Of a stretch of 36,907 nt of DNA, positions 1,661 to 28,995 are shown piece after piece. The notes beneath the pieces are model-generated. The model ran no database searches. It saw only the letters and a list, made by a program, of their open reading frames with translations, and was not told the DNA's origin. Made by a program: the position numbers and the translations under genes. The DNA comes from a virus (taxonomy: Duplodnaviria > Caudoviricetes): positions 1-36,907 of IMG/VR virus record IMGVR_UViG_3300017914_002840. One strand, given 5' to 3'. The stretch's first letter is position 1, and each line of letters opens with the position of its first letter.

Positions 1661-1683
1661 TTGTAGTACTTATCCTATTTAAA

Positions 1684-3611: not shown

Positions 3612-4287
3612 TAAATTTCTCCCTTAGCCAATCAAAATCATTTATTTTATTCAAATCATCTGGAGAATCTTTGTACCGTTCACCGTATGCTTTGCCTTGA
3701 ACTGCACCAGCAATAGCATATTCTCCAAACGGTCGATCTTGACCTTGTGTACACCATACTTCTAATCTTGGATCAGTTTCATGGTCTTTTTGTTTTTCAA
3801 TAATTTTACTTGCAAGTTTTGTGCATTCTCTAAATGCAGATTTAAATGTGTTGAATGGATCTGTGTTGAATCTAGTTGTGTTGCTCACTGGCGGCATTGG
3901 CTTGAATTTGTTCGCACCGCCTACACTTGTTGTAAAATCAATACGCCAGTCTTTTGCATCACGCAGAGCTTGTGTTGGAAATAGTTTAACACCGCCATAA
4001 CCGTATATGAGATCATTAACAGGGTTCCTACAACGCCATGTGTGTATTTTATCTAGATCCCATTTTGTTGGCTTGTAAGTAAAATCAAAACCAGGATCTA
4101 GATCTGCATCAGCATCAACCACATAAAACATTTCAGTGTAAGCCTGCTCGGCACACTTTTTATGAGCATTAAAAATACCTTTGACTCCGGCAACTCGCTG
4201 AGCCCATGGAAAGCTGGATTTTAAATTTGCAAATGTTTCATCTGCAAATTGTTCTTGGTAACTGAGATGAAATATATCGTATGACAT
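3586..4287 (-). CDS. Glycosyltransferase-like (GT-A fold) protein
   Basis: FYVVDAD DxD motif, YGYGGVKL; 233 aa. Confidence 0.55.
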   Translation of the reverse strand: MSYDIFHLSYQEQFADETFANLKSSFPWAQRVAGVKGIFNAHKKCAEQAYTEMFYVVDADADLDPGFDFTYKPTKWDLDKIHTWRCRNPVNDLIYGYGGVKLFPTQALRDAKDWRIDFTTSVGGANKFKPMPPVSNTTRFNTDPFNTFKSAFRECTKLASKIIEKQKDHETDPRLEVWCTQGQDRPFGEYAIAGAVQGKAYGERYKDSPDDLNKINDFDWLREKFNGYQNSIR

Positions 4288-4892
4288 TAAGCACGTTGCT
4301 CTTCAATCTTATCAATCAATCCAAACTCAACTGCTTGAGTGGCTGTCATAAAATTATCACGCTCCATTGAATTTTGAATTACTTCTAAAGACTGTCCTGT
4401 GTGTTTGACATATAAGTCATTTAACGTTTTCTTTGTGTCTAAAATATCTTTTGCATGAATTTCAATATCAGTTGCTTGTCCTCTAAATCCACCACTTGGT
4501 TGATGGATCATTATTTTACTGTGAGGTAAAGCAATTCTCTTACCGTTTGTACCAGCCATTAACAATAAAGATCCAGCACTGGCCGCCTGGCCAATACACA
4601 CTGTGGAAATATCAGGTTTAATATACTGCATTGTGTCATACATTGCTAATCCAGATGATACTACACCACCTGGTGAATTAATATACATAAAAATGTCTTT
4701 GTCTGGTGATTCAGATTCAAGAAATAGTAATTGGGCACATACAACACTTGCAACATGATCATCAATTGGTCCTGTAACAAAAATAATACGTTCCTTTAAA
4801 AGTCTTGAATAGATATCATAACTTCTTTCTCCTCTTGAAGTTTGATCAACTACCATTGGTATCAGTGAACTCATAATGTTTTCCTCTTTCAT
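4287..4892 (-). CDS. clpP: ATP-dependent Clp protease proteolytic subunit
   Basis: [23 protein letters not shown]; catalytic triad motifs GQAASAG (Ser), MIHQP (His), ERDNFM (Asp); true start may be the Met at 4874. Confidence 0.97.
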
Positions 4893-4938: not shown

Positions 4939-5364
4939 CTATTTGCTACCCAAATAATTGTCTAGCGTTCTTTGAAATTTGCCTGCATGTGACTTCTCAG
5001 CCTTTGCAAGTGTTTCAAACCAATCAGCAATCTCGTCAAATCCTTCATCTCTGGCTGTTCTTGCCATACCTGGATACATATCTGTATACTCATGTGTTTC
5101 TCCATGAATTGCAGATTTTAAGTTTGCTTCAGTTTCTCCCATTGGTTCACCTGTTGCAGGATCTCCAACTTCTTCTAGATATTCTAAATGGCCATGTGCA
5201 TGACCAGTTTCACCTTCTGCTGTGCTTCTAAAAACACTTGCAACATCAGGTGCACCTTCAATATCTGCTTTTTGAGCAAAATAAAGATATCTTCTATTTG
5301 CTTAGGATTCTCCACTAAACGCCGCCATTAAATTGTCAGCAGTTTTTGTACCTTTTAAAGACAT
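4939..5364 (-). pseudogene. Rubrerythrin (ferritin-like), 141 codons, interrupted by an in-frame TAA at codon 21
   Basis: MSLKGTKTADNLMAAFSGES*ANRRYLYFAQKADIEG...EGETGHAHGH...continues in frame into track ORF 4939..5142 (GETHEYTDMYP, AEKSH); the stop at 5302-5304 sits where the family has Gln (GESQANRRY). Confidence 0.85.
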
Positions 5365-5388
5365 ATTTTTTCCTTTTGTTATTTTTAC

Positions 5389-5417
5389 ATTTTATAATAT
5401 TTTGTTAACATTGTCAA
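5389..5417 (-). promoter_or_regulatory. Sigma70-type promoter upstream of rubrerythrin
   Basis: TTGACA (5417-5412), 17-nt spacer, TAAAAT (5394-5389). Confidence 0.65.
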
Positions 5418-5747
5418 TCATATATTCAATATCATTCTGGCTTCTTCACTCATCATTTCTGGACCAAATGGTGGATCAAAAGTAGTTATGATCATGCATT
5501 TATCTACTCCATCAATGCATTCAGTTGCTTGTTGAATGTCATCTATAATTTCATCTGCGGCTGGACAAAATGCAGATGTTAATGTATGAGTTACTGTAAC
5601 TGTAGGTAATTTTGTCATGTCAATATCATATATCAATCCAAGATCATATACATTAATGGATATTTCTGGATCATAAACTTGTCTTAAATTTTCAATAATT
5701 TCTTTTTTAATTTTTTCTTCCTTTGACAATGTTATTGGTTCCGTCAT
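5418..5747 (-). CDS. Fe-S cluster assembly protein, SufT/MIP18/DUF59 family
   Basis: VYDPEISINVYDLGLIY and TLTSAFCP motifs. Confidence 0.9.
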   Translation of the reverse strand: MTEPITLSKEEKIKKEIIENLRQVYDPEISINVYDLGLIYDIDMTKLPTVTVTHTLTSAFCPAADEIIDDIQQATECIDGVDKCMIITTFDPPFGPEMMSEEARMILNI

Positions 5748-6316
5748 ACAGCCTCCACTCTTTTTACTTCTTTAACATAGTGTCTTAGCATGTTTTCAAT
5801 ACCCATTTTTAAAGTAGCAGTTGAACTTGGACATCCAGAACATGCTCCAAACATTTCTAAATATACTACTCCATCTTCAAAACTATGAAATATAATATCG
5901 CCGCCATCCATTGCTACTGCCGGTCTTACTCTAGTATCTAATAATTGAATTATTTCTTTTTCAGCTTTGCTTTGTCCTACATTAGAATTCAAATCCTCAC
6001 ATGCCGGTGTTGGTTGATCTTCAATCACAAAAGGATGATCAGAATTATCATAGTCTCTAATCATTTCCATGATTTCAGATCTAATATTTCCCCAATCCAC
6101 TGTATCATTTTTACCCACAGTGATAAAGTCAGAGCCAAAGAATACGTCAGTGATACCTTCAAATTGAAAGATCGAATACGCCAATGGAGCATCTTCTTTT
6201 GGATTGTTTACTGGATCTTTTTTATAAAACAGAGGTGCTTTACTACCTCTCACTTCCCTTGATACTACAAATTTTAAAGCATTAGGGTTTGGTGTTTGCT
6301 CATATACAACTGACAT
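5744..6316 (-). CDS. NifU/Nfu-type Fe-S cluster carrier (Nfu_N plus NifU-C domains)
   Basis: TPNPNALKF N-terminal domain; RVRPAVAMDGGDI...GACSGCPSS. Confidence 0.93.
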   Translation of the reverse strand: MSVVYEQTPNPNALKFVVSREVRGSKAPLFYKKDPVNNPKEDAPLAYSIFQFEGITDVFFGSDFITVGKNDTVDWGNIRSEIMEMIRDYDNSDHPFVIEDQPTPACEDLNSNVGQSKAEKEIIQLLDTRVRPAVAMDGGDIIFHSFEDGVVYLEMFGACSGCPSSTATLKMGIENMLRHYVKEVKRVEAV

Positions 6317-6317
6317 A

Positions 6318-6950
6318 TTATTTTGCCTCCATTAGTTCTAGTAACTCATGTACTCCATTGTAAGCAAAGTACACTGCTAACGCACCCAATAACCATTTGC
6401 TGATAGTAAAGAATGTACCAACATTGATTTGTGCTATACCTTTTTTCATTAAAATATAAATTACACCAAGTGCAACTGCACCTACTACACCACCAAACCA
6501 AATACTATAAGTTTCTGCAATTGGTGACGCAAATAATCCTGCATAAAATAAAACAATTTCAAATCCTTCTCTTAGTATTGCAAAGAACACTGCTAATGAT
6601 AATGTGATTGCTGTGCCTGTAGTTATTGCTGTTTTGATTGCACCTTCCACATGTTGTTTTGCTGTGTGACACCAAAATGCCACATAGGCCAAAACACCGG
6701 CCGCAATCAACATGGTCACACCTTCAAACAGTTCTTCATGTACATGTGTTAGTGATGATATGAATGTAAATCCTATGGCTATGATAATTGAAGCAAGTAC
6801 GCCATAACCTATACCTTGCCAAACATATTGTTTTTTGTCTTGTGCGTTGAGTTTTTCCAAATAGGTAAAAATCAACATGGCAATTAACATTGCCTCAAAT
6901 CCTTCTCTCAATATGATAAAGAAAGATCCCATAAATGGTGCTATACTCAT
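6318..6950 (-). CDS. FTR1/EfeU family iron permease
   Basis: Two REGFE (RExxE) motifs in a multi-transmembrane protein. Confidence 0.92.
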   Translation of the reverse strand: MSIAPFMGSFFIILREGFEAMLIAMLIFTYLEKLNAQDKKQYVWQGIGYGVLASIIIAIGFTFISSLTHVHEELFEGVTMLIAAGVLAYVAFWCHTAKQHVEGAIKTAITTGTAITLSLAVFFAILREGFEIVLFYAGLFASPIAETYSIWFGGVVGAVALGVIYILMKKGIAQINVGTFFTISKWLLGALAVYFAYNGVHELLELMEAK

Positions 6951-7009: not shown

Positions 7010-7327
7010 TTATTCAGGTTCAACTGTAACGTTCAAAGGATGACCAGCGGAACGAGCCATTGCAGTTGATTCAATTGCTTTCTGTTCAGCGATTTCGTGT
7101 ACATAGGTACCGACTACTGCTTTTCCTTTGTCATGAATTAACTGAGTTAATTCACTAGCTGTGTCATTGTCATGATGAAATATATCAACAAGAATACTTA
7201 TTACAAATTCCATTGGTGTATAGTCATCGTTCATAAAAAGTACATGATACTTGTTTGGTTCATGTAATTTAATATCTCCAACTGTGTCAACATTTGGTGA
7301 TGCGTTTGGTGATGCGTTTGCTGTCAT
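7010..7327 (-). CDS. clpS: N-degron recognition adaptor ClpS
   Basis: VLFMNDDYTPMEFV, IHDKGKAVVG, EIAEQK, GHPL. Confidence 0.95.
   Translation of the reverse strand: MTANASPNASPNVDTVGDIKLHEPNKYHVLFMNDDYTPMEFVISILVDIFHHDNDTASELTQLIHDKGKAVVGTYVHEIAEQKAIESTAMARSAGHPLNVTVEPE
7293..7320. repeat. 12-bp tandem repeat in the ClpS N-terminal extension
   Basis: tttggtgatgcg twice plus tttg; encodes NASPNASPN. Confidence 0.7.
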
Positions 7328-7329
7328 TT

Positions 7330-7863
7330 TTATTTCTCCATCATTTCTACATCAGGTAGTATATACTGCTTCATTTCACCACCTTCTGTTGTTTCGCCTT
7401 TTTGCTTCATTTCAGCTGGCTTGCCTTTCAATGTTTTTATTTCAATTTTAATTGGTTGTCCTTCACTCATTTGTCTTAATTTTTCCAACTGATCATGTAA
7501 TTCTTTATTGTATTGTACATAAATTCCACGCGGTTGTCTATGATTAATTAAGTCAATTATTTCTGGAAAAACATAGTCATATTCATATTCTGGAGAAATT
7601 AACCATACATAAATCTTGTCATTTCTTTCATCAGCATAGTAAGACAGCATAATTCCTTTGCCATCTGGTAATTTATCCTGTGGTATAGACCAACCATAAA
7701 TCATGTTTAGTCCTTGATACATGGTTATTATTGTTATCACAGTTAAAGTAGTTGCTACTACTTTAATTAATGTTTTAAATCTTTTGCTTCCAACAATAGC
7801 CATACATAGAAAACTTCCAAGTATTGCTAATCCTATCAGAATTATTAAGTGTCCTGCTATCAT
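7330..7863 (-). CDS. Membrane protein (two N-terminal TM helices plus soluble domain), third gene of the ExbB/ExbD-like unit
   Basis: Two hydrophobic segments; start overlaps the upstream stop codon. Confidence 0.6.
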   Translation of the reverse strand: MIAGHLIILIGLAILGSFLCMAIVGSKRFKTLIKVVATTLTVITIITMYQGLNMIYGWSIPQDKLPDGKGIMLSYYADERNDKIYVWLISPEYEYDYVFPEIIDLINHRQPRGIYVQYNKELHDQLEKLRQMSEGQPIKIEIKTLKGKPAEMKQKGETTEGGEMKQYILPDVEMMEK

Positions 7864-8498
7864 CTTCCATCCGTATTGTCTGCCATTTTAAATGGCAGAT
7901 CACTTGTTTCTACAACATTACCATCTGTATCCACTGTAAACCTCAAAAATGTTTTTTCATCACCTTGAAAATTCAATGTTTTTGTTCCAACATAAATTAA
8001 TCTGTAAGGATTTAACTTTTCAATTTTTACAGTAACTGGTACACTTTCACTAGGTTGATATAACTCTCCTGTTGGTAACTTTTTTTGTACAGTTGATTTT
8101 GAATACCAATGTGCATTTACAATGTATTGTCCTGGCAACACTTCTCTAATTGTGATGTGTTCTTCGTTGAGTCTGAAAAATATATCTCCAGACACTGTGC
8201 TAACAACATCATTGCTAGTTCCTAAATCATCTCTATCTAAATTGTTTAATCCTTTATCTTTTTGTTTGAAGAAAACAAAATGATCTGCTGGATCTTTAAG
8301 ATAGAGATCAATGTCGTCATGGCTGTCAGCTGGCCATGACATAGTAATTATATATTCAGCTTTTACAATTATATCTCCTTTTTTAGCAACCGGATTGATT
8401 AATAAAAATGCTATAATGAATAACATTGTCAATCCTATTGTGATATTAAAAAGAAGATCAATAAAAGCAATAGAAGTTTTATATCGGTCTCTTCGCAT
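7860..8498 (-). CDS. ExbD/TolR/MotB-like single-TM protein with YfaP/DUF2135-like external domain
   Basis: AFIDLLFNITIGLTMLFII TM with the conserved-position Asp; WPADSHDDIDLYLKDP...LDRDD...GQYIVNAHWY. Confidence 0.55.
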   Translation of the reverse strand: MRRDRYKTSIAFIDLLFNITIGLTMLFIIAFLLINPVAKKGDIIVKAEYIITMSWPADSHDDIDLYLKDPADHFVFFKQKDKGLNNLDRDDLGTSNDVVSTVSGDIFFRLNEEHITIREVLPGQYIVNAHWYSKSTVQKKLPTGELYQPSESVPVTVKIEKLNPYRLIYVGTKTLNFQGDEKTFLRFTVDTDGNVVETSDLPFKMADNTDGR

Positions 8499-9006
8499 CT
8501 TGCTTTTCTTTTACATAGTTGTCAAAGTGTGATTCTAATCTAAAAAATTGAACTTTGAGTATTACACTTGTAATCAAGCCTACCAGTGTTGTGTAAAGAG
8601 CTGTACTCATGCCTAGACTCATGTTCATTAAACTTTCTTGCACACTGTCTGGATCTGAGATATTTAATTCAGCAAATGCTCCCACTAACATCAAAATAAA
8701 TCCACTTACTGTTCCAATCAAACCAAGTGTTAAACATATTTCAGACGAAAACCAACCTGTTTCATATCTTCTCTTTAAATCTTGATCAGGATCGCTGTTT
8801 TGAATTTTTACTTTGTTGAGTTTCCATGCTTCATATCCACAAAATAAAGAAACTACTGTGAATAAAGCCAAAATAAGAAAACTGATTTTTGTCTTATCAG
8901 CATTCCATAAAACTTCAAATATGTCAAATGATGCTAAAACTGTTGTTGTTAAACAAGCTGTACAGAAAAACCACCACCATTCTAAAAATACTTTATACTT
9001 GATCAT
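8479..9006 (-). CDS. MotA/TolQ/ExbB proton-channel family protein
   Basis: LGLIGTVSGFI...GMSTALYTTLVGL signature helices. Confidence 0.85.
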   Translation of the reverse strand: MIKYKVFLEWWWFFCTACLTTTVLASFDIFEVLWNADKTKISFLILALFTVVSLFCGYEAWKLNKVKIQNSDPDQDLKRRYETGWFSSEICLTLGLIGTVSGFILMLVGAFAELNISDPDSVQESLMNMSLGMSTALYTTLVGLITSVILKVQFFRLESHFDNYVKEKQDAKRPI

Positions 9007-9114: not shown

Positions 9115-9558
9115 TTACTTGATCTCAATTGATCTTGGCTTTTTGCCTTCTGGAATAATACGTTCCATAGAAATTTTAAGTAAGCCGTCTTTCAACTCAG
9201 CACCTTTAACTTCTACATCATCTGCAATAGTAAATGATTTTGAGAAATATCTTTTTGAGATACCTCTGTGTAGTACACCGTCATCTTTGTTTTCTTCTGA
9301 CTTTTTAACAGATTTCACTGTTAGTACGTTGTCAGCATAGTCAATTGTGATATCATCTCTTGAGAAACCAGCAAGTGCTAGTTCTACATCATAAGTGAAG
9401 TCACCGGTTTTGACAATGTTGTACGGTGGAAAGTTAACTGTAGGAACATTGAAAGTATAGTCATCATCAAACATACGTTCAAAATGATCGAACATGTTAT
9501 CGAATCCTACTGTTACTGGTCTTAGTTGATTAAAAATAGATAGATGTTTATTAGTCAT
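9115..9558 (-). CDS. Small heat-shock protein (Hsp20/IbpA-like)
   Basis: VGFD, FPPYNI, ELALAGF, LHRGISKR, AELKDGLL, C-terminal IEI. Confidence 0.96.
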   Translation of the reverse strand: MTNKHLSIFNQLRPVTVGFDNMFDHFERMFDDDYTFNVPTVNFPPYNIVKTGDFTYDVELALAGFSRDDITIDYADNVLTVKSVKKSEENKDDGVLHRGISKRYFSKSFTIADDVEVKGAELKDGLLKISMERIIPEGKKPRSIEIK

Positions 9559-9617
9559 TTTAACTCCTCCTTTTAAGCAAGTTTAATTTAATGTAGATCC
9601 TATCTAAGCAATCTACA
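9559..9617 (-). promoter_or_regulatory. ROSE-like RNA thermometer leader of hsp20
   Basis: Two hairpins each with UUGCU opposite AGGA: TGTAGATTGCT-TAGAT-AGGATCTACA (9617-9592) and CTTGCT-TAAA-AGGAG (9581-9567), the second covering part of the SD. Confidence 0.55.
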
Positions 9618-9621
9618 CAGT

Positions 9622-9629
9622 TATTTATA
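9622..9629 (-). promoter_or_regulatory. T4-type late promoter upstream of hsp20
   Basis: Exact TATAAATA on the minus strand, just upstream of the leader hairpins. Confidence 0.65.
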
Positions 9630-9681
9630 CAACTTTTTTGTTGTATATGTATAATATAACAACTTTTTTAAAAATTACGAC

Positions 9682-9912: not shown

Positions 9913-11102
9913 GTGTTATATGTCCAATTATATAGTTCTAAGTTAACGTCCTTTAATTTTTCAGAACGAATTGTATCTAGGATGGTACTATTATTTTTAA
10001 ATATTTCTAAGTGTTTGGATCTGTCTACATCATATTTTTCCCAATTTTTAGAAGTAAATATTTTTTCTAAATGTGTCCGAATTTCTTGGTTCTTTATGTT
10101 AGAAATTCTGCTTTTTAAAATTTCTAAATGATTATGAGATAAAATTTTAAGCGTGTCCATATCATTTGTATAAACATATTCAGATTTTACCGGAACACCC
10201 ACGTTTTCAATCCACTTATCAAAATCAAGTATTTTATTGATTGTGTAAATATTAGTTGCCATATGAAGTCTATATTGTGTATTTGGATTTTGGTTAGCAA
10301 AGTCTTTCCATTTGTAAACATTTTTTTCAAATGTGTTCCACACCAATCCTTTTCTTACATATTCAGCTAACTTACCAGTACTTTCAATGCTTGATCGTAT
10401 ATCAAATCCTTTAAATCGAGAAAAAACATCTAATTTTTGTTGGTTTGGGAAAATAGAAGAGTTGGTGTTAATCTGCATTGACAACTTAGATATATCTGTT
10501 TTTCTTTCAAGCAATTCTAAGAAATCTTCAAAATGTCTTGCCATAAAAGGTTCTCCGCCAAACACTGCAATTAGTCTTAATTTTGATAGATCTTGTTTTT
10601 CAAGATGAGAAAGAAACTCTTTTTCATGTTCCATTGTTTGTGTTGCTGTCATAAGAATTTCTTTATCACTTGTATTTCTACGATATTGTTTATGAAGATC
10701 AAGTTGTTTCATTCTATCAACATCGTTGTTCCATTCTGTGCTAAGTTCTGGACTACAATATCTACATTTAAAATTGCAAAAATTTGAAAAAGAAACTTGT
10801 AAATTTACAATTTCACCAATTTTTAAACTTTTTAAAAAATCTGGCTCTTCATAAAATAAAAAAGGTTCTGTTCTTAAACTAGTATTAGAAAGTTTTTCCA
10901 TTGCTGAACATTTTTTACATTGAAGATTTGATAGATTTTTATAATTTATGTCTTTATTATTTTTTATATTTTGAAAGTATTTGTCAATATCTTTAGTGTG
11001 TAAATCACTATCAGCTAATTTATACCTACAACACGGCATTGCGCCAGTTGGCTCATACGATAAACCATTTGTAATCCAATAACAACCTCTTTCGTTATTC
11101 AT
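9909..11102 (-). CDS. Radical SAM protein (twitch-like N-terminus)
   Basis: CNFKCRYC, FGGEP, INTNS; N-terminal C...PCC...CKKC. Confidence 0.85.
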   Translation of the reverse strand: MNNERGCYWITNGLSYEPTGAMPCCRYKLADSDLHTKDIDKYFQNIKNNKDINYKNLSNLQCKKCSAMEKLSNTSLRTEPFLFYEEPDFLKSLKIGEIVNLQVSFSNFCNFKCRYCSPELSTEWNNDVDRMKQLDLHKQYRRNTSDKEILMTATQTMEHEKEFLSHLEKQDLSKLRLIAVFGGEPFMARHFEDFLELLERKTDISKLSMQINTNSSIFPNQQKLDVFSRFKGFDIRSSIESTGKLAEYVRKGLVWNTFEKNVYKWKDFANQNPNTQYRLHMATNIYTINKILDFDKWIENVGVPVKSEYVYTNDMDTLKILSHNHLEILKSRISNIKNQEIRTHLEKIFTSKNWEKYDVDRSKHLEIFKNNSTILDTIRSEKLKDVNLELYNWTYNT

Positions 11103-11120: not shown

Positions 11121-11196
11121 TGGCGGAGCATACGGGATTCGAACCCGTGGTCTTCGCCGTGACAGGGCGACGTGTTAACCGCTACACTAATGCTCC
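11121..11196 (-). tRNA. tRNA-Asp(GTC)
   Basis: GGAGCAT acceptor, TCGCC-CTGTCAC-GGCGA anticodon arm, TTCGAAT T-loop, encoded CCA. Confidence 0.96.
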
Positions 11197-11205
11197 ATTA
11201 ATTAA

Positions 11206-11234
11206 ACTATATAGCAATTTTATAAAAATGTCAA
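11206..11234 (-). promoter_or_regulatory. Sigma70-type promoter for tRNA-Asp
   Basis: TTGACA (11234-11229), 17 nt, TATAGT (11211-11206). Confidence 0.65.
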
Positions 11235-11238
11235 GTAA

Positions 11239-11315
11239 TGGAGGGCCTGGAAGGATTCGAACCCTCGACCCTTTCGTCCGTAGCGAAATGCTCTAATCCA
11301 CTGAGCTACAGGCCC
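11239..11315 (-). tRNA. tRNA-Arg(ACG)
   Basis: GGGCCTG acceptor, TTTCG-CTACGGA-CGAAA anticodon arm, TTCGAAT, CCA. Confidence 0.96.
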
Positions 11316-11523: not shown

Positions 11524-11853
11524 TTAGTAGCCAGGTGTAAAATCTTTATATCTAACTCCGTATTCTAGAGCTAGTTCACGTTGTCTTTTTTCATTTCTAC
11601 GTTTTGCTTGTTGTTTAGCAAGTTTCTTTTTTTCGCTTGGTTTTTGATAATAACGTCTGTCTTTGACTTCTTGCAACAGGCCATCTCTTAGAATTCTTTT
11701 CTTTAACCTACGATATGCTTTCATAGGATCTTCGCCTTCACGTACAAATACCTGAAAGCCAACCGGTTTTGGTCTGTCAGTTTTTGTCTTATTGGCATAA
11801 GTTGTTTTAAAGTTTTTGTTTCTTGGTTTAGTATTCCTGTTGTTTGGTTTCAT
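11524..11853 (-). CDS. rpsU: Ribosomal protein bS21 with basic N-terminal extension
   Basis: VFVREGEDPMKAYRRLKK...GLLQEVKDRRYYQKPSEKKK matches the bS21 pattern. Confidence 0.85.
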   Translation of the reverse strand: MKPNNRNTKPRNKNFKTTYANKTKTDRPKPVGFQVFVREGEDPMKAYRRLKKRILRDGLLQEVKDRRYYQKPSEKKKLAKQQAKRRNEKRQRELALEYGVRYKDFTPGY

Positions 11854-11872
11854 TTTTACCTCATTTGTTTAA

Positions 11873-12409
11873 CTACATTATACTAGATTTTTTTAAAATT
11901 GCAAGAACTTTATTTCCCTGCCATTTTGGATTAGTGTCATATTCAAATTTGTCAATAAATCCAACAAAATTTTCATATTTTTGATAGCAAAAGTCTTTCA
12001 TTCCTTGCTCTCTTCCACGCACTTGCATGATTAATTTTACTTTGTGCCCTTCGGCTAAGAATCCATTTATCTTTTTGGTTTTTACTTTTATATCACCAAT
12101 ATCAATAGTGGGCCTAAATTGGATTTCTTTTAGTTCAGTCACTGATTGATTTTTACTTGATTCTTTTTTCTTTTTCTTTAACTGATAAAGATATTTGCCA
12201 AAATCCATTATTTTACACACCGGTGGTTTTGCATGTGGTGTTATGCAAATTAAATCTAGCCCTTCTGACTTTGCTTGTTGTAATGCTTCATTAGTTCTCA
12301 TTATTTTATTAAAATTGTCACCAATTAATCTAATTTCAGGAGATTTGATTTTTTCATTTATAACAGAATTTTTCTTAGTACTGTCTTTTGGTCCTAATCT
12401 GTGCTTCAT
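11873..12409 (-). CDS. infC: Translation initiation factor IF-3
   Basis: INEKIKSPEIRLI, PPVCKIMDFGKYLY, KEIQFRPTIDIGD, GHKVK, RGRE. Confidence 0.96.
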   Translation of the reverse strand: MKHRLGPKDSTKKNSVINEKIKSPEIRLIGDNFNKIMRTNEALQQAKSEGLDLICITPHAKPPVCKIMDFGKYLYQLKKKKKESSKNQSVTELKEIQFRPTIDIGDIKVKTKKINGFLAEGHKVKLIMQVRGREQGMKDFCYQKYENFVGFIDKFEYDTNPKWQGNKVLAILKKSSIM

Positions 12410-13651
12410 TTATTTAGAGTCAGTACCTGTTTCTTGATAAATTAAAAGAGGGTTACCGTTGTCAAATGTATCTTTGTTTACTACCACACGAGATACACCG
12501 GCTTTTCTATAACTCGGTAATTCATATTGTATGTTTAGTAATAGATCTTCAACTACAGATTTTAATGCTCTTGCACCTAGTTTCTTTTCATATGCAAGTT
12601 CAACAATTTTATTAATAGCATCATCGGTTATTTCAATATCAATCGATTCCATCTTAAACAGTTTCTGTATCTGTTTAAGCAATGAGTTTTCTGGCTTAAT
12701 CAAAATATCTTTCATTTCTTCTTTGGTTAATTCCAATACCGATACAAGCACAGGTAGTCTTCCAACTAATTCTGGTATCAATCCAAATTTTATTACATCT
12801 TCAGGTTGAACTGATTGTTTTAAGTTGTTTTCTATTTGAACTTCTCTACCAAATCCTATTGCACTGGTATTTAATCTTTTGTTGATGATTTTATCTAAAT
12901 TGACAAATGCTCCTCCACAAATAAACAAAATATTTGTTGTGTCAACTTCAATCATTTCTTGCTGTGGATGTTTTCTTCCACCCTGTGGCGGTACTCTAAC
13001 TGTAGTACCTTCAATGATCTTTAATAGTGCTTGTTGTACACCTTCACCTGATACATCTCTTGTGATTGATGTGCTTTCGGACTTACGAGATTTTTTATCA
13101 ATTTCGTCAATGTAAATGATTCCTCGTTGTGCTTTTTCAACATCATAATCTGCTTTTGCAAGTAATCTAACAATTATGTTTTCAACATCATCACCAACAT
13201 AACCAGATTCAGTTAATGTGGTTGCATCACCAATAGCAAAAGGTACATCAATGTAATCTGCAATTTTACTTGCCATTAGTGTTTTACCAACACCAGATGG
13301 TCCAAGCATCAGCACATTTGATTTTTCAACAGTTATACCATCATCGTCATCGTGCTGTTTTGAAAATAAACGTTTGTAATGATTATACACAGCTACACTT
13401 AAAACTTTTTTGGCTTGTTCTTGACCAATAACATGATCATTTAAATGACTGTGTAGATCTTTTGGATCTGGGATTTCAAAAGATTCGGGTGCTTCGTCTT
13501 TTTGACCTTTTGCTGAGTCATCTATAATACTGTGACAAAGTTCAATACATTCGTCACAGATGTAAGCACCTTCGGGTCCAGCAACTAGCTTCTCAGCTTC
13601 ACGTTTAGTTTTTCCACAAAAAGAGCATTTCATATTTTCGTCTTTATTCAT
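12410..13651 (-). CDS. clpX: ATP-dependent Clp protease ATP-binding subunit
   Basis: Zn finger CSFC...CDEC, Walker [13 protein letters not shown] pore loop, IDEIDK, RKH loop (GGRKHP), IGF loop. Confidence 0.97.
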
Positions 13652-18472: not shown

Positions 18473-19228
18473 TTATTCTTTGCGTTCAATATCTTCTTCA
18501 ACACATTCTGTGCCGTACTGAACTTCTAAAATATGACAATGTTCTTTATTAGGATTTGATGCTTGATGCCACACATTTTTAGATATATCGTATGCTTTAT
18601 TTTGTTGTAATACTATGCTGTCCGTAACATTGTTGTATTCAGTAGCAATATTACAGGATCCTTTTAGCATATACCAGTGTTCAGATCTTTTGAAATGTCT
18701 TTGCATACTTAAACTTTTTCCTGGCTCTATAACAAGCTCTTTGACTTTATAGCCTGGCTTGTCTTCAAGAACTCTATACCAACCCCATAATCTTTTTGTT
18801 TTAGGTGATTTCCATTCTTCTAAAATCCAGCTGGAGGAATTTTTCTTGTTACCACCAACATCATACGCAAACTCCACAATGTCATGATATGTTTTATATT
18901 CTGGGATGTTATCTTGTTGTCGATCTCCGCCATTTGCAAATAAAATTTTTATAGGTCCATGAGTTGCTAGTGTTTTATATATGGCACCACAGGCAGTATC
19001 ATCTGCATCATCAAAACTGATAACACGATCTACCATATTTAAATTTTCAATTATTGTTGCTCTTTCTTTGAATGGCATAAACGGACGACCTTTTTTACGT
19101 GTCAGCCACTTGTCACTGTTTAGACCAACATGTAATTCGTCTCCTAGTTTACGAGCTTCTTTAAAATATTCTATATGTCCTGAATGCAAAGGATCAAAAC
19201 CACCTGTTACTAAAACTATTTTTTTCAA
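18473..19228 (-). CDS. Cytidylyltransferase (RfaE/TagD-like) fused to a cupin (type II PMI C-terminal-like) domain
   Basis: TGGFDPLHSGH, NSD, KKGRP, NGGDR; C-terminal RLWG...LSMQRHFKRSEHW...ILEVQYG...EEDIER; TTG start. Confidence 0.85.
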   Translation of the reverse strand: MKKIVLVTGGFDPLHSGHIEYFKEARKLGDELHVGLNSDKWLTRKKGRPFMPFKERATIIENLNMVDRVISFDDADDTACGAIYKTLATHGPIKILFANGGDRQQDNIPEYKTYHDIVEFAYDVGGNKKNSSSWILEEWKSPKTKRLWGWYRVLEDKPGYKVKELVIEPGKSLSMQRHFKRSEHWYMLKGSCNIATEYNNVTDSIVLQQNKAYDISKNVWHQASNPNKEHCHILEVQYGTECVEEDIERKE

Positions 19229-19470
19229 AGTTTTCTCCTATTCTTATAAAAATAAACTACAAAAGCACCTCCAGATTTGTGTAATTCAACTTGTCTAACA
19301 AAACTCATATCCATACACCATCTTTGAAATTCTTGTTTGATTGCACCATCACCTGTTACAATTACTACTTTTTTAATCAAAGGATTCTTTTGTTTTTCAT
19401 TAATCCATTGATTAAAACAACGCCATGCGTCCATAACTGTGTATCCATGTAAATCTAATTTTTCAGTCAT
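19225..19470 (-). CDS. Stand-alone Smr (MutS2 C-terminal) domain protein
   Basis: LDLHG, VIVTGDG, GGAFVV. Confidence 0.85.
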   Translation of the reverse strand: MTEKLDLHGYTVMDAWRCFNQWINEKQKNPLIKKVVIVTGDGAIKQEFQRWCMDMSFVRQVELHKSGGAFVVYFYKNRRKL

Positions 19471-22180: not shown

Positions 22181-22264
22181 TGGTGCTCCGGGAGAGATTC
22201 GAACTCTCACGCCTTTCAGCACTGGTTCCTAAGACCAGCGTGTCTACCATTCCACCACCAGAGC
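22181..22264 (-). tRNA. tRNA-Leu(TAG)
   Basis: CTGGT-CTTAGGA-ACCAG anticodon arm, long variable arm, TTCGAAT, CCA. Confidence 0.96.
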
Positions 22265-22501: not shown

Positions 22502-23505
22502 TACTCACTCGTTTGTGTTTGTATGGTTTTGGCATTTGCTTCTTGTTTCATTTTAGAAGCTTCTGATTCAGAAATTTTTTCTTGTACAAGAAACTGATTC
22601 CCAATATTACCTTTGAATAGATATGAACCTTGGTGATCCAAATTGATGCTTGGATCCATCCAAATTGTACCGTCTAGTTCTTGCCATCTTCGACAAAATG
22701 TATAATCTTCTGACAAGTATCTTCTTGTTTCTGGATCAATGATTGTGTCAAATAATGCATAGCAATAAGGATCAAATTTTGGATCAGTGTTTAAATCATT
22801 TTTATAATGCAGATCCGGCCATTTATCCATCATTGTTTGAATAACACTTCTATCAAATAACATAAAACCTGTTCCTGCATCATACACTGGCAACAGTCCT
22901 TGTTGCAAAGGGATTCTTCCATTGTTATCTGTTCTAAGATTTAAAACATATGATGCTTGATATTTTTGCATTTCTTCTTCATCAACTTGATTTGATACAA
23001 CTTGATCTCTAATATTTTTCCAGTTGATTGTTTTCTTTGGATATGCTCCTGTTACAACTTTAACTGTGTCAGGTTGTTGAACTGCTCGCCACCAAAGTTT
23101 TAAAACATCTTCTGCAATGAAATGAATATCTGCATCAATAAACAACATGTGAGTAAATTTTGGATCACTCATAAACATTGCCACAAGTGTATTTCTACCT
23201 CTTGTGATCAAACTTTCATTTGCAATAGTGGCCAGTGTAAAGTTTAAATTGTGTTTTGCAAACAATATACCAATTTTAGTCATGGCCTTTAGATATGCTT
23301 CACCAACCATACCTCCGTATGCTGGTGTGGCAATAAACAAATGTTTGTCTTTAAACAAAGAAAGATCAATCTCAACTTTATTTCCTAGTGCTTTATCAAG
23401 ATGTTGACCATGTTGCATTTCTTGTTGTTTTTTGGCTTCTTGCTTGGCCGCTTTTTTTTGTTCGTATGCCTGTTTGCCCGGGCTTGGTTTTTTATTTTTA
23501 GACAT
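22501..23505 (-). CDS. GT-A fold glycosyltransferase-like protein
   Basis: IATPAYGG, ESLITRGRN, FIDADI, GTGFML, LSEDYTFCRRW. Confidence 0.7.
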   Translation of the reverse strand: MSKNKKPSPGKQAYEQKKAAKQEAKKQQEMQHGQHLDKALGNKVEIDLSLFKDKHLFIATPAYGGMVGEAYLKAMTKIGILFAKHNLNFTLATIANESLITRGRNTLVAMFMSDPKFTHMLFIDADIHFIAEDVLKLWWRAVQQPDTVKVVTGAYPKKTINWKNIRDQVVSNQVDEEEMQKYQASYVLNLRTDNNGRIPLQQGLLPVYDAGTGFMLFDRSVIQTMMDKWPDLHYKNDLNTDPKFDPYCYALFDTIIDPETRRYLSEDYTFCRRWQELDGTIWMDPSINLDHQGSYLFKGNIGNQFLVQEKISESEASKMKQEANAKTIQTQTSE

Positions 23506-23855
23506 TAGTCTCCTTCTCCTGGTTTTTCAGAAAATAAATCTGTTTTATCTTTTCCATAATTGTCTGGTTTATATTTTTCAGCTTCTGGCATTTGATCAAT
23601 AAGTTTTGTTAGATTAGGCCATTGTTCTCCAAACTTTTTATTAATGTCTAACCAATGCTGTTTGTCAGGTTCATCAAAACTATCAGGTTTGATAGCATCT
23701 ACTGGGCATTCTGGCTCACAAACTCCACAGTCAATACATTCATCTGGGTTGATTACCAGCATGTTTTCGCCTTCGTAGAAACAATCTACCGGACACACTT
23801 CCACACAGTCCGTGTGTTTACACATAATACATGATTGATTTACATAATACGTCAT
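23505..23855 (-). CDS. fdxA: 7Fe ferredoxin FdxA-type
   Basis: [21 protein letters not shown]...[13 protein letters not shown]; C-terminal FSEKPGEGD. Confidence 0.93.
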
Positions 23856-25850: not shown

Positions 25851-25940
25851 TGGCGGAAGGGGTGGGATTCGAACCCACGATAGAGTTGCCCCTATGCTGG
25901 TTTTCAAGACCAGTGCTTTCAACCGCTCAGCCACCCTTCC
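25851..25940 (-). tRNA. tRNA-Ser(TGA)
   Basis: GGAAGGG acceptor, CTGGT-CTTGAAA-ACCAG, long variable arm, TTCGAAT, GCCA. Confidence 0.96.
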
Positions 25941-26753: not shown

Positions 26754-27161
26754 TTATACTGTTGCTATTTTACTCTGCAAAACTCCTATAAGGTTATAAA
26801 GACCATTACGTCTTTGTGGTGTTACTAATTGTACAAATCCTAATTTTTCTAAACCTTTATCCCAATCAAAATCTTGTGCTTCTTGTTTAGTGCAATCTGT
26901 AAAAATATCACAAACTATTGTTGCAATACCTTTTGGAATCATTGCATCGCTGTCATAATAAATTTTAATTTTATCATCAACTATTCCAACTTCTACCCAT
27001 ATCTTGCTTATGCATCCAGGGATCAATCTGTCATCAGTTCTTAACTGTTCTGGCAATGTAGTCGACTTTCTTGCCAACTCAACAAGGTAACTTAACTTTT
27101 CTGTACCATCGCCAAGAAAAGATAAATCATCTGCCCATTTGTCAAGTTTTTCTTGTATCAT
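26754..27161 (-). CDS. sufE: SufE family cysteine desulfuration protein
   Basis: IPGCISKIW, DSDAMIPKG, TPQRRNGL; start moved to the ATG at 27161. Confidence 0.9.
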   Translation of the reverse strand: MIQEKLDKWADDLSFLGDGTEKLSYLVELARKSTTLPEQLRTDDRLIPGCISKIWVEVGIVDDKIKIYYDSDAMIPKGIATIVCDIFTDCTKQEAQDFDWDKGLEKLGFVQLVTPQRRNGLYNLIGVLQSKIATV

Positions 27162-27445
27162 TTTAAAAACAATTGGTATAATGCAATAATGTTCATTGTT
27201 GAAAACCATGCTGTCAATACCATTACCCATACCGCTTGTCTATAATATGCACCAGCAAAACCGGTTACACTGCCTACAAAATAAAAAGGCACAAATAGAT
27301 CTGGTCTTGGATCTAGCACTGTGTAAGTCAAAATACTGCTACCAATAATAACTGTAATAGCACTAACCATTTCAAGATAAAATGCTAAAGGATGACTTTG
27401 GTAACTAGATTTCCAAAAATTAATTAATTTATTCATTGTTATCAC
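27158..27445 (-). CDS. Small 3-TM membrane protein
   Basis: FWKSSYQSHPLAFYLE then three hydrophobic segments. Confidence 0.65.
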   Translation of the reverse strand: MITMNKLINFWKSSYQSHPLAFYLEMVSAITVIIGSSILTYTVLDPRPDLFVPFYFVGSVTGFAGAYYRQAVWVMVLTAWFSTMNIIALYQLFLK

Positions 27446-27457
27446 AAACCTATTTAG

Positions 27458-27731
27458 TGCAACTTTTCTGTTGCCAGGTAAGTTGCCAACCCCGCCTGCC
27501 TAACTATTAGGCCGCAAGTGCTAGATTTTCATCTGCATTTGTAGTTGTGTTCGCGTTAACCGAGCTTACATCCGGACAACTCCATAACTCTACTAATCTG
27601 CTAGTCGATCCTAGTTCAGGCCCATCATAAACACACCAATTTCCTTCATCTAGGACCATGATGTGTTTATGGTGGACCTGCTGGGTACTGCCCCCAGGTC
27701 CTATACAGTGTTTGAATTACTTCAACATTGT
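27458..27731 (-). ncRNA. ssrA: Circularly permuted two-piece tmRNA (alphaproteobacterial type), tag (A)ADENLALAA
   Basis: Acceptor piece ends CTGGG-GGCAGTA-CCCAG-CAGGTCC-ACCA (3' end 27670); 46-nt self-complementary intervening segment; coding piece starts GGGCCTG (27623), giving a 7-bp acceptor stem with G3:U; tag frame 27536-27507 then TAA TAG; outer ends approximate. Confidence 0.93.
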
Positions 27732-27736
27732 TAAAA

Positions 27737-27767
27737 TATTTATAACACAGGTTTTTAAATTTGTCAA
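27737..27767 (-). promoter_or_regulatory. Overlapping sigma70 and T4-late promoter for tmRNA
   Basis: TTGACA (27767-27762), 17 nt, TGT-TATAAA; the -10 is part of an exact TATAAATA. Confidence 0.75.
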
Positions 27768-27777
27768 GTTGGATTAT

Positions 27778-28713
27778 TTACAATGTGGTTTTTAAATTGT
27801 TAATTGTTTGTGTGGTTGCAATAGCTGACTGAAGCAAATACCTTGCACAAGGATCTTGCATTAATCCTTCAAGCAAACCTGCCAGTGCCGCTTGTTTTAG
27901 TAACTCTAAAAATCTTCCAAGGTTTCTTAAATCTTCTTTGATTATATCAATTAGTAATTTTACCAATCCAATGATTGCCAATGCCATAGCAAGTATTCCA
28001 AGCACTTGTCTTAATTTGCCAAGTATTTCTCCTAACACTTGTCCAGCTTTAAATAAAGCACCTAGCATGTCTTCCATAAATTTACACGGACCACCTGATG
28101 TTGCAGGTATATTCCCTAATGTAGTAGCAAGTGCATTAACACTACTCAAAGCACTTAGGTATGTTCCTAAAGTAGGAACAGCAACGCCACCGGGTGAACC
28201 TGCTGTAGTTGGAATATCAACTCCATAGTTTGGATACAAATTAGTTTTTCCCATTGCTACCCACTGTGCGTTAGGATCAGTATACTCGGTAATACACATA
28301 CCACTCTGTCTATTTTGTAACCAAGTAATATCTTGCATTGCACCTTCAACAAAGTTAATATCATTGATTTCCATATCAGTTAATTTACGATCTGGCTGAC
28401 CTGGTCCAATTAAACTACCAGGTACTATTGCTCGTTGATTATAGTCATTGTGTCCCCAACCATCTGGCAATGCGGCTTTTTGTTGATTAATAATTTGTGC
28501 AATTTCTTTGATTGATTCGTCGTGTGGATTTTTAAATCCAGCATAGGCTTTACAACTTCTGCCCCATGGATCAACATGATCAACAATATTCAATGCACCA
28601 CTGGCAATTAAATTTTTTTGTGTATCAGTTATAGTTATTTGATTTGCAATTATATTAGTTGGAAAATTTAAACTGTCTAATTGTAATCCTGGTATTTGTT
28701 TTCCTGTAGTCAT
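27778..28713 (-). CDS. Hypothetical protein, probably virion/baseplate-associated
   Basis: 311 aa directly after PAAR; hydrophobic helical C-terminus. Confidence 0.5.
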   Translation of the reverse strand: MTTGKQIPGLQLDSLNFPTNIIANQITITDTQKNLIASGALNIVDHVDPWGRSCKAYAGFKNPHDESIKEIAQIINQQKAALPDGWGHNDYNQRAIVPGSLIGPGQPDRKLTDMEINDINFVEGAMQDITWLQNRQSGMCITEYTDPNAQWVAMGKTNLYPNYGVDIPTTAGSPGGVAVPTLGTYLSALSSVNALATTLGNIPATSGGPCKFMEDMLGALFKAGQVLGEILGKLRQVLGILAMALAIIGLVKLLIDIIKEDLRNLGRFLELLKQAALAGLLEGLMQDPCARYLLQSAIATTQTINNLKTTL

Positions 28714-28719
28714 TGTTTA

Positions 28720-28995
28720 TTATCCTGCAAATACATTTGGACTTCCTGTTGCTACTGTACTTCCACATGCAACAGGATCTGATACTCTACCAAGTTGCAA
28801 TCCATTAGCATGAACTGTTCCAGATCCAGCTGACAATGTGCTTCCATGAAGGCAATGAATTGACCAACTGTCTGATTGTCTATGTACTGGTCTACCATTT
28901 GCAAACACGTTTGGACTCCCACCGTTGCTTGGTCTTGGAGGACATGGTCCATGTCCTGTACAATCATCGCCTAATCTTGTTACTGGTTGTGACAT
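28720..28995 (-). CDS. PAAR-repeat baseplate spike tip (T4 gp5.4-like)
   Basis: PVTRLGD, GSPNVFANGRPVHR, GRVSDPVACG, GSPNVFAG. Confidence 0.93.
   Translation of the reverse strand: MSQPVTRLGDDCTGHGPCPPRPSNGGSPNVFANGRPVHRQSDSWSIHCLHGSTLSAGSGTVHANGLQLGRVSDPVACGSTVATGSPNVFAG

What the first reader, a model, noticed from the sequence alone, without database searches (positions are those of the whole stretch)
27458..27767. Phage-encoded permuted two-piece tmRNA together with its own ClpXP
Seen: acceptor piece, intervening segment, then coding piece; G3:U alanine identity pair; GGCAGUA T-loop; tag ADENLALAA; a dual sigma70/late promoter. The same window carries intact clpP (4287..4892) and clpX (12410..13651) with the GYVG and RKH loops. 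Established: this permuted layout and T-loop are characteristic of alphaproteobacteria, and a C-terminal LAA is the ClpX degron read by those loops. Inference: the phage brings a matched tag-and-destroy ribosome-rescue circuit usable early and late in infection. No smpB or sspB is visible in this window.
Basis: partly seen in the sequence, partly recalled or inferred. Interest (0 to 1): 0.85.

Follow-up and report, generated by a model that had tools for sequence, protein, structure and literature searches.

The report
Jumbo-phage two-piece tmRNA with ClpXP
A fragment of an uncultured giant phage carries an intact split ribosome-rescue RNA gene (two-piece tmRNA) and intact ClpXP protease genes that would likely destroy the proteins it tags, but both are already known from other phages and they look like host-compatible parts of an inherited gene kit rather than a private matched circuit.

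Summary
RF01849 matches 27456-27771(-) at 117.5 bits; G3:U70, the GGCAGUA T-loop, CCA end 27670, G1 27623 and tag ADENLALAA are present, with compensatory changes among relatives. ClpP and ClpX pass NCBIfam cut-offs with all tag-reading loops. The window is a fragment of a T4-related jumbo myophage. Phage two-piece tmRNAs are published (Melnitz, Mosig; 53 forms), as is tmRNA plus ClpXP (phage G, Sinorhizobium AP-J-162). Nothing is private: the ClpX loop cores match the solved bacterial enzyme and 219 of 219 phage tags end in AA. tmRNA occurs without ClpX (0 of 6 near-complete small phages) and ClpX without tmRNA (3 of 8 GenBank jumbos). A complete relative has them 178 kb apart and lacks SmpB and SspB. 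In favour of some link: 4 of 4 complete uncultured ClpX genomes carry tmRNA, usually 5-30 kb from clpX. This scan reported all these themes before on other DNA. New member of a known kind.

The parts
27762..27767 (-). sigma70-type -35 hexamer TTGACA
   Evidence: same layout in close relatives; function not tested
27737..27744 (-). TATAAATA: T4-type late promoter motif overlapping the -10 position, 17 nt after the -35
   Evidence: motif depleted genome-wide, found before gene starts; late sigma in relative G007; function inferred
27670..27732 (-). acceptor piece of the two-piece tmRNA (5' start inferred from the RF04321 match): T-arm 27697-27681, acceptor 3' strand 27680-27674, discriminator A 27673, CCA 27672-27670
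27624..27669 (-). 46-nt intervening segment, predicted long hairpin continuing the acceptor stem; no ORF here, but a cargo slot in close relatives
27458..27623 (-). coding piece: G1 at 27623 (acceptor 5' strand, G3:U70), tag reading frame, stop hairpin and terminal hairpin; 3' end inferred
27507..27536 (-). tag reading frame ADENLALAA-stop
   Evidence: the 27 coding bases are identical in 48 of 49 viral matches to a degenerate pattern
12410..13651 (-). clpX with zinc-binding domain, GYVG, pore-2, RKH and IGF loops
4287..4892 (-). clpP, host-like, with Ser, His and Asp motifs
7010..7327 (-). clpS adaptor (suggests a ClpA elsewhere in the genome; ClpA-like genes found in complete relatives)
19225..19470 (-). 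81-aa stand-alone Smr domain with DLH and GxG motifs; candidate SmrB-like nuclease lacking the N-terminal ribosome hook
11524..12409 (-). infC (IF3, 11873-12409) and rpsU (bS21, 11524-11853) directly after clpX
   Evidence: clpX-infC order shared with Phosso and Atu_ph07
9115..9558 (-). Hsp20 small heat-shock protein
27778..28995 (-). upstream context: PAAR gene (28720-28995) and 311-aa gene (27778-28713); the order PAAR, gene, ssrA is also seen in Phosso

Best explanation
This is an intact alphaproteobacterial-type two-piece tmRNA gene in a T4-related jumbo phage that likely tops up the host's ribosome rescue using host SmpB, and whose tagged products would be degraded by phage and host ClpXP alike, because the phage's intact clpP, clpX and clpS belong to a broad inherited translation and protein-turnover kit rather than a dedicated pair. 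Shown: gene layout, identity elements, covariation, tag, intact Clp motifs, phage origin of the syntenic relative, lack of smpB and sspB in a complete relative. Inferred from established tmRNA biology: transcription from the early/late promoter, cutting at 27670 and 27623 by host tRNA-processing enzymes, charging by host AlaRS through G3:U70, delivery by host SmpB and EF-Tu, addition of A-ADENLALAA, recognition of the C-terminal ALAA by the ClpX pore-2, GYVG and RKH loops.
For: Rfam hits and covariation. G007 is syntenic with the window and has major capsid, portal, sheath, terminase and late sigma. Tags end in AA in 219 of 219 called from 360 loci chosen without regard to ClpX. ClpX loop cores are the same as in the top solved structure; GYVG in 80 of 80 and R[KR]HP in 62 of 80 viral ClpX. 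tmRNA-first sample: ClpX in 3 of 28 contigs, 0 of 6 at least 90% complete; Melnitz and Mosig have tmRNA but no ClpP. ClpX-first: no tmRNA in Atu_ph07, PA5oct or SCTP-2, 3 of 8 complete GenBank genomes. Complete relative G079 (328 kb, same tag) has ssrA about 178 kb from clpX, three ClpP-like genes, a ClpA-like gene, and no SmpB or SspB. The same 27 tag bases also ride with two distant, long-branch ClpX proteins (L371, L372).
Against: In the jumbo lineage the genes travel together: permuted tmRNA in 24 of 48 ClpX-bearing contigs and 3 of 3 complete ones, plus G079. In 24 contigs with both, they lie 4.7-26 kb apart, including three complete genomes at 10, 20 and 23 kb (fragments bias towards short distances). 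The window's ClpX clade (10 rows, support 98/97) shows only this tag where one was seen, 7 of 10. A mini-Smr is kept in the same region. All this fits shared descent but does not exclude joint selection. No expression or processing data exist.
Confidence: 0.6

Rival explanations
1. A coupled, jointly selected rescue pipeline: the phage mini-Smr cuts mRNA at collided ribosomes (possibly at a site including phage bS21), the phage tmRNA tags the stalled chains with a short tag that may bypass host SspB, and phage ClpXP destroys them, taking over when host quality control is overloaded or shut off.
For: All parts are intact and lie within 23 kb in the window. Smr found in 18 of 42 records, in all 9 tested of the window's group (G001-G003, G005-G008, G012, G079; one below cut-off, G012 placed by similarity only) and 0 of 6 near-complete small tmRNA-only phages. 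DxH is the catalytic motif of SmrB and SmrB contacts S21 (bioRxiv 10.1101/2021.08.16.456513, passages). The tag is short and starts AD where 206 of 219 phage tags start AN; SspB binds the first seven tag residues in E. coli (PMC9963277, passages).
Against: Smr follows the ClpX block, not ssrA: Atu_ph07 has Smr and ClpX without tmRNA; in G079 Smr is 5 kb from clpX and far from ssrA. A bare SMR domain of SmrB does not bind ribosomes, and the window's protein has no N-terminal extension. No smpB. The genes are not one operon.
Confidence: 0.2
2. The two have unrelated jobs: ClpXP serves virion assembly, replication control or removal of host proteins, and the tmRNA's products are cleared by host proteases.
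For: [quoted passage not shown] Authors propose replication or assembly roles for Atu_ph07 and AP-J-162 ClpX (PMC6102473, PMC11242549, passages). The lineage carries further divergent ClpP paralogues, ClpS and ClpA-like genes. 7 of 80 viral ClpX have lost the RKH-type loop and 11 read RKN.
Against: This ClpX keeps every tag-reading loop unchanged, so it is predicted to take tagged substrates whether or not that is its main role.
Confidence: 0.13
3. The RNA is a decoy that titrates host SmpB or otherwise dampens host trans-translation, like the tRNA-domain-only form of mycobacteriophage DS6A.
For: A DS6A-like molecule inhibits tmRNA (PMC4131195 and PMC11915505, passages). The tag codons show no synonymous change in 48 of 49 viral copies, so they are constrained as RNA, not demonstrably as peptide.
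Against: A full tag frame with stop and degron is kept. A hairpin over codons 1-5 and another over the stop are predicted and can explain base-level conservation. Degrons are kept in 219 of 219 phage tags.
Confidence: 0.05
4. The contig is bacterial DNA or a chimera, so the 'phage-encoded' claim fails.
For: The window holds many host-like genes and few structural genes.
Against: An independent contig is 99.9-100% identical over the overlap. Syntenic relatives continue into T4-like helicase, primase, UvsX and structural genes. The tag pattern hit no alphaproteobacterial genome among GTDB representatives: 13 hits, all one-piece tmRNAs.
Confidence: 0.02

Closest known systems
Two-piece ssrA of Methylophilales phage Melnitz and Pelagibacter phage Mosig (Buchholz et al. 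2022, PMC9004378)
   Same: Phage-borne, alpha-type permuted tmRNA; degron ending LAA; Melnitz has the same -35 plus TATAAATA promoter layout. Mosig is the best DNA match, 78% over 103 nt.
   Different: Those are 141-kb phages with no ClpP; the window's lineage is about 330 kb and has ClpP, ClpX, ClpS, ClpA-like and Smr genes; the tag is shorter and starts AD.
Sinorhizobium jumbo phages Phosso (PV764938.1) and AP-J-162 (PMC11242549), with Agrobacterium phage Atu_ph07 (PMC6102473)
   Same: clpX next to infC, ClpP, Smr. Phosso has a permuted tmRNA (113 bits, 349596-350198) in the same PAAR-gene-ssrA order. AP-J-162 is reported with one tmRNA, six Clp genes, IF3, S21 and Hsp20.
   Different: Phosso's tmRNA is not annotated in its record, has a 410-nt spacer and another tag, and its ClpX reads RKN; Atu_ph07 lacks tmRNA. 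The passages I read do not link tmRNA to ClpXP.
Bacillus phage G (JN638751.1; PMC12484599) and Lak-B1 / LR756504 huge phages (PMC7162821 for tmRNA and SmpB in huge phages)
   Same: tmRNA and ClpX in one phage genome, with annotated ClpP in phage G. Lak-B1 and LR756504 also carry SmpB, a more complete set than here (the Lak-B1 tmRNA is just over the cut-off).
   Different: One-piece tmRNAs and non-alphaproteobacterial hosts.
Alphaproteobacterial two-piece tmRNA, Rfam RF01849 / RF04321 (prototype Caulobacter)
   Same: Permuted layout, T-loop type, G3:U70, encoded CCA, resume context, terminal conserved motif.
   Different: Phage-encoded, late-promoter motif, 9-codon tag not found in any alphaproteobacterial GTDB representative by my pattern, variable spacer used as a gene slot in relatives.

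Membership tests
Alpha-type permuted tmRNA (RF01849/RF04321) | Covariance-model score above the gathering threshold over the full model | tested here: met
   117.5 vs 50 and 98.2 vs 47 bits
Alpha-type permuted tmRNA (RF01849/RF04321) | Acceptor piece precedes coding piece, separated by an intervening segment | tested here: met
   CCA end 27670, 46-nt spacer, G1 27623
Alpha-type permuted tmRNA (RF01849/RF04321) | Alanine identity: G3:U70 and discriminator A | tested here: met
   10 of 10 aligned relatives; feature as described in PMC3968760 passages
Alpha-type permuted tmRNA (RF01849/RF04321) | Open tag frame with resume codon, stop and C-terminal degron | tested here: met
   27536-27507; ARAGORN calls the same peptide in 12 of 13 one-piece bacterial genes
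Alpha-type permuted tmRNA (RF01849/RF04321) | Processing into two pieces, aminoacylation and tagging in vivo | not testable with these tools
   No RNA holder listed
ClpX / ClpP | Equivalog HMM cut-offs; ClpX zinc finger, Walker A/B, GYVG, pore-2, RKH, IGF; ClpP Ser-His-Asp motifs | tested here: met
Self-contained trans-translation system | Own SmpB | tested here: not met
   0 of 50 and 0 of 5 records, including complete G016, G037, G043, G079; the window's own genome is a fragment
Self-contained trans-translation system | Own SspB adaptor | tested here: not met
   0 of 29 and 0 of 5 records; the control rang in E. coli and Caulobacter
Dedicated (orthogonal) tag-protease pair | Tag or ClpX loops differ from host type in a matched way | tested here: not met
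   Loop cores match the solved bacterial ClpX; tag ends ALAA. Kinetics untested.
Dedicated (orthogonal) tag-protease pair | Strict co-occurrence and linkage | tested here: inconclusive
   ClpX to tmRNA: 4 of 4 complete uncultured, 5 of 8 GenBank; tmRNA to ClpX: 0 of 6 near-complete; distance 5-31 kb usually, 178 kb in G079
SmrB-type collision nuclease (window 19225-19470) | DxH and GxG motifs | tested here: met
   DLH in 13 of 13 aligned rows (two duplicates of others), GxG-type loop present
SmrB-type collision nuclease (window 19225-19470) | N-terminal hook needed for ribosome binding | tested here: not met
   81-aa bare domain; longer versions with an N-terminal helix exist in Atu_ph07 and other jumbos

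The most novel reading that the evidence does not exclude
These jumbo phages run their own collision-to-destruction pipeline on host ribosomes: a hook-less mini-Smr nuclease recruited through phage bS21 makes non-stop messages, a two-piece tmRNA with a short SspB-bypassing tag that has swept through several phage lineages marks the stalled chains, and phage ClpXP destroys them, needing only host SmpB; the same tmRNA transcript doubles in close relatives as a messenger for small genes held in its excised spacer.
Probability: 0.15. Interest if true: 0.7.

Novelty: new member of a known kind. Interest (0 to 1): 0.3.

Why it matters
Why large phages carry tmRNA is an open question; in the papers I read the role is only proposed. 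This window does not answer it, but the follow-up gives a cultured test system: Sinorhizobium phage Phosso holds an unannotated permuted tmRNA at the orthologous position together with ClpX, ClpP and Smr, while its relative Atu_ph07 lacks the tmRNA. It also shows ARAGORN misses this gene, so published phage counts based on it are probably low. If the pipeline reading were true it would be a virus taking over translation quality control end to end.

Tried and rejected
ARAGORN: no call at default; relaxed thresholds gave only unrelated calls elsewhere. Promoter and terminator scanner: 0 sites. Expression: no RNA holder listed; the one run laid is contigs of unknown kind holding a roughly 95-97% relative, so it says nothing on RNA ends. 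Host assignment by ClpP: best plasmid-collection hits are mixed (Legionella 67%, Rhizobiales and Rhodobacterales 62-65%, E. coli 62.5%) and the protein search returned mostly unnamed environmental homologues, some from Tara; host unresolved, alphaproteobacterial only by inference, and Melnitz shows an alpha-type tmRNA can sit in a phage of another class. Host tag search: 13 GTDB hits, all one-piece genes of Cloacimonadota, Verrucomicrobiota or unnamed bacteria, taken as convergence. A bacterial control for spacer cargo failed: only 5 partial plasmid matches. Cargo ORFs matched no PHROG family, 0 of 11. Mini-Smr had no useful PDB sequence match. The search for alphaproteobacterial SspB tag specificity gave 2 listings that I did not read, so SspB bypass is a guess from E. 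coli data. An apparent non-degron tag in L172 was a truncation of my window; the full tag is long and ends in AA. No structure or complex prediction was run: ClpX-ClpP is a textbook pair. In the tree I used 39 of 89 ClpX sequences and ran no one-clade test, so the outside position of L371 and L372 is unsure.

Full report
Observation. The tmRNA is there. Rfam RF01849 matches 27456-27771 on the minus strand at 117.5 bits and RF04321 at 98.2 bits; ARAGORN misses it. The landmarks are T-arm 27697-27681 with loop GGCAGUA, acceptor 3' strand 27680-27674, discriminator A, CCA ending 27670, a 46-nt spacer, G1 at 27623 and the tag frame ADENLALAA-stop at 27536-27507. The precursor folds far better than shuffles (z -5.35). 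Across the window and 9 relatives, 99.1% of 338 cells pair, 12 of 34 pairs show two-sided changes, slid controls pair 26-49%, and G3:U70 is invariant; the rows are related and the structure came from the window, so this shows consistency and is not a p-value. ClpP and ClpX pass their NCBIfam cut-offs and ClpX keeps the zinc finger, GYVG, pore-2, RKH and IGF motifs.

What the genome is. The held genome is the window itself, a 36.9-kb virus record. An independent contig, G001, is 99.9-100% identical over the overlap and extends it with primase, a second divergent ClpP-like gene, thymidylate synthase and helicase (some named through homologues). G007 (243 kb) is syntenic along the whole window and encodes major capsid, portal, sheath, terminase and a late sigma factor (102 of 174 ORFs outside the syntenic block were scanned). 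G079, with the same tag and a ClpX in the same supported clade, is complete at 328 kb. So this is a T4-related jumbo myophage; the clpX-infC order and the PAAR-gene-ssrA order are shared with Sinorhizobium phage Phosso. The host is not established.

Promoter. TTGACA lies 17 nt before TATAAATA. TATAAATA is rare in these AT-rich genomes (3 vs 11.4 expected; 15 vs 86 in G007) and sits ahead of gene starts including late genes, which supports its being the late promoter. The dual layout is not special to this gene: 135 of 327 distinct upstream regions of unselected phage ssrA genes have a -35 plus a late-type motif, while only 10 of 32 with this tag do and 17 of 32 have a plain TATAAT (the late pattern allowed a variable first base).

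How common. Three exact T-arm patterns are estimated at about 1500, 690 and 590 stored stretches in IMG/VR. Buchholz et al. (PMC9004378; abstract, passages and section 8 read) describe the two-piece ssrA of Melnitz and count 53 two-piece forms among phage tmRNAs, with no mention of ClpX. Nawrocki et al. (PMC11915505; first fifth and passages) list 79 phage sequences. Phage G has an annotated tmRNA, ClpP and ClpX (PMC12484599 passages). AP-J-162 has a tmRNA, six Clp genes, IF3, S21 and Hsp20 (PMC11242549 passages). Huge phages with tmRNA and SmpB are reported in PMC7162821 (passages). PMC12656738 and PMC11273794 (passages) add phage tmRNA and Clp mentions without linking them. My searches found no paper arguing that a phage tmRNA is coupled to phage ClpXP; the library lacks most subscription papers and I opened no supplements, where gene tables could bear on this.

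Is it a matched circuit? For: permuted tmRNA is in 24 of 48 ClpX-bearing contigs (46 of the 80 ClpX loci, chosen by length, plus two relatives) and 3 of 3 complete ones, plus G079; the genes lie 4.7-26 kb apart in 24 contigs and 31 kb in Phosso; the window's ClpX clade shows only this tag where one is visible, 7 of 10. Against: of the 28 longest contigs among 120 picked by tmRNA, 3 have ClpX and 0 of 6 near-complete ones do; Melnitz and Mosig lack ClpP; Atu_ph07, PA5oct and SCTP-2 have ClpX and no tmRNA, 3 of 8 complete GenBank genomes; in G079 the genes are 178 kb apart. All 219 tags I could call from 360 unselected loci end in AA, so the degron is kept with or without a phage ClpX. ClpX binds the C-terminal ALAA through pore-2 with RKH help (PMC9963277 passages), and those loops are unchanged here. 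SmpB was absent from 50 and 5 records and SspB from 29 and 5, complete relatives included; the SmpB search does find it in Lak-B1 and LR756504. The lineage also has ClpS, ClpA-like genes and extra ClpP paralogues, a general proteolysis kit.

The tag. A degenerate pattern allowing any synonymous codons gave 49 viral loci; 48 share the same 27 coding bases, although their acceptor and T stems, spacers and neighbours differ (neighbour proteins 36-100% identical); the 49th is a one-piece gene. Either RNA structure fixes these bases (hairpins are predicted over codons 1-5 and over the stop) or the tag module has spread by recombination; for the latter, L172 and L322 share a spacer cargo but differ in tag, and two distant ClpX lineages carry the same bases. 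I cannot separate the two. No alphaproteobacterial GTDB representative matched the pattern.

Mechanism. Most likely (0.6) the gene is transcribed early and late, cut by host enzymes at 27670 and 27623, charged with alanine, delivered with host SmpB, and tags stalled chains that phage and host ClpXP both remove; ClpXP has wider duties. These steps are inferred from established tmRNA biology (PMC3968760 passages); only the sequence requirements are shown. A jointly selected pipeline with the mini-Smr at 19225-19470 (0.2) is the bolder rival: the gene keeps the catalytic DxH motif and is in 18 of 42 records, but it follows clpX rather than ssrA and lacks the hook that SmrB needs to bind ribosomes (bioRxiv 10.1101/2021.08.16.456513 passages). 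Unrelated roles (0.13), decoy (0.05) and bacterial origin (0.02) follow.

Side result on the spacer. The window's spacer is a plain hairpin, but its nearest relatives (L002, L004, L005, L013, L014) hold a 21-codon hydrophobic ORF with a ribosome-binding site there. In a first sample 17 of 66 spacers of at least 70 nt held such an ORF against 2.1 in shuffles; in a second, largely independent sample 12 of 97 against 1.9, antisense 1 (30 of 240 loci could not be mapped). Homologous cargo genes differ mostly at third codon positions (148, 82, 261) and some occur as ordinary genes next to ssrA in other phages. A conserved TGA at the spacer end inflates plain ORF counts, so I rely on the binding-site and codon evidence. 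I found no paper on this (PMC11915505 notes a tRNA and a repeat in spacers), had no bacterial control, and earlier notes of this scan report it on other DNA.

Verdict. Observation confirmed; interpretation partly supported; new member of a known kind; interest 0.3. Earlier notes of this scan reached similar readings on other genomes; they are not independent support.

Noticed in passing
window 19225-19470 (-): Stand-alone 81-aa Smr domain with intact DLH motif, conserved in the jumbo lineage (18 of 42 records), absent from small tmRNA-only phages; candidate collision nuclease.
   Followed up: partly
L002 11366-11431 (+), also L004, L005, L013, L014: Nearest relatives carry a 21-codon hydrophobic ORF with a ribosome-binding site inside the tmRNA spacer; about ten unrelated cargo families occur in other phage spacers, under purifying selection.
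   Followed up: yes
L255 about 1553-1720 (+), phage Melnitz MZ577097.1: Unannotated ORF with a ribosome-binding site starts in the Melnitz spacer and, read by eye, runs on into the coding piece, so processing would leave a non-stop message; it is homologous to the L206 cargo.
   Followed up: partly
L265 1501-2103 (-), phage Phosso PV764938.1 349596-350198: Permuted tmRNA not annotated in the GenBank record, with a 410-nt spacer of unknown content; no other Rfam family matched there.
   Followed up: partly
L285 364-966 (+), record G001, beyond the window's right end: Second, divergent ClpP-like gene (35% identical, Ser and His motifs present) between primase and thymidylate synthase; G007 and G079 have three ClpP-like genes.
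   Followed up: partly
window 7010-7327 (-): ClpS without ClpA in the fragment; complete relatives have a ClpA-like gene just under the equivalog cut-off.
   Followed up: partly
window 4939-6950, 23505-23855, 26754-27230 (-): Iron and Fe-S cluster genes: rubrerythrin-like, FeS assembly P, NifU with Nfu_N, FTR1 iron permease, ferredoxin, SufE, beside several radical SAM genes.
   Followed up: no
window 7330-9006 (-): Three-gene membrane module with a MotA/TolQ/ExbB-like protein, conserved in G007.
   Followed up: no
window 9590-9630 (-) and G007 about 189638 (+): A late-promoter motif followed by a short palindromic stretch conserved between the two phages upstream of hsp20; possible regulatory RNA or operator.
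   Followed up: no
L172 about 10330-10430 (+), L128, L182, L139: Unusually long tags (23-34 residues in about 17 of 219 called) in some phage tmRNAs, still ending in AA.
   Followed up: no
L066, L069, L072, L082, L083, L090, L058: Seven of 80 viral ClpX proteins have a rebuilt RKH loop and altered pore-2 flank; their tmRNA status was checked only for L058 (none found, 45% complete).
   Followed up: partly
window 27778-27800 versus L002-L014: All close relatives have a small extra ORF between the 311-aa gene and the tmRNA promoter; the window and G001 lack it.
   Followed up: no
window 11121-11315, 22181-22264, 25851-25940 (-): Four tRNA genes (Asp, Arg, Leu, Ser).
   Followed up: no
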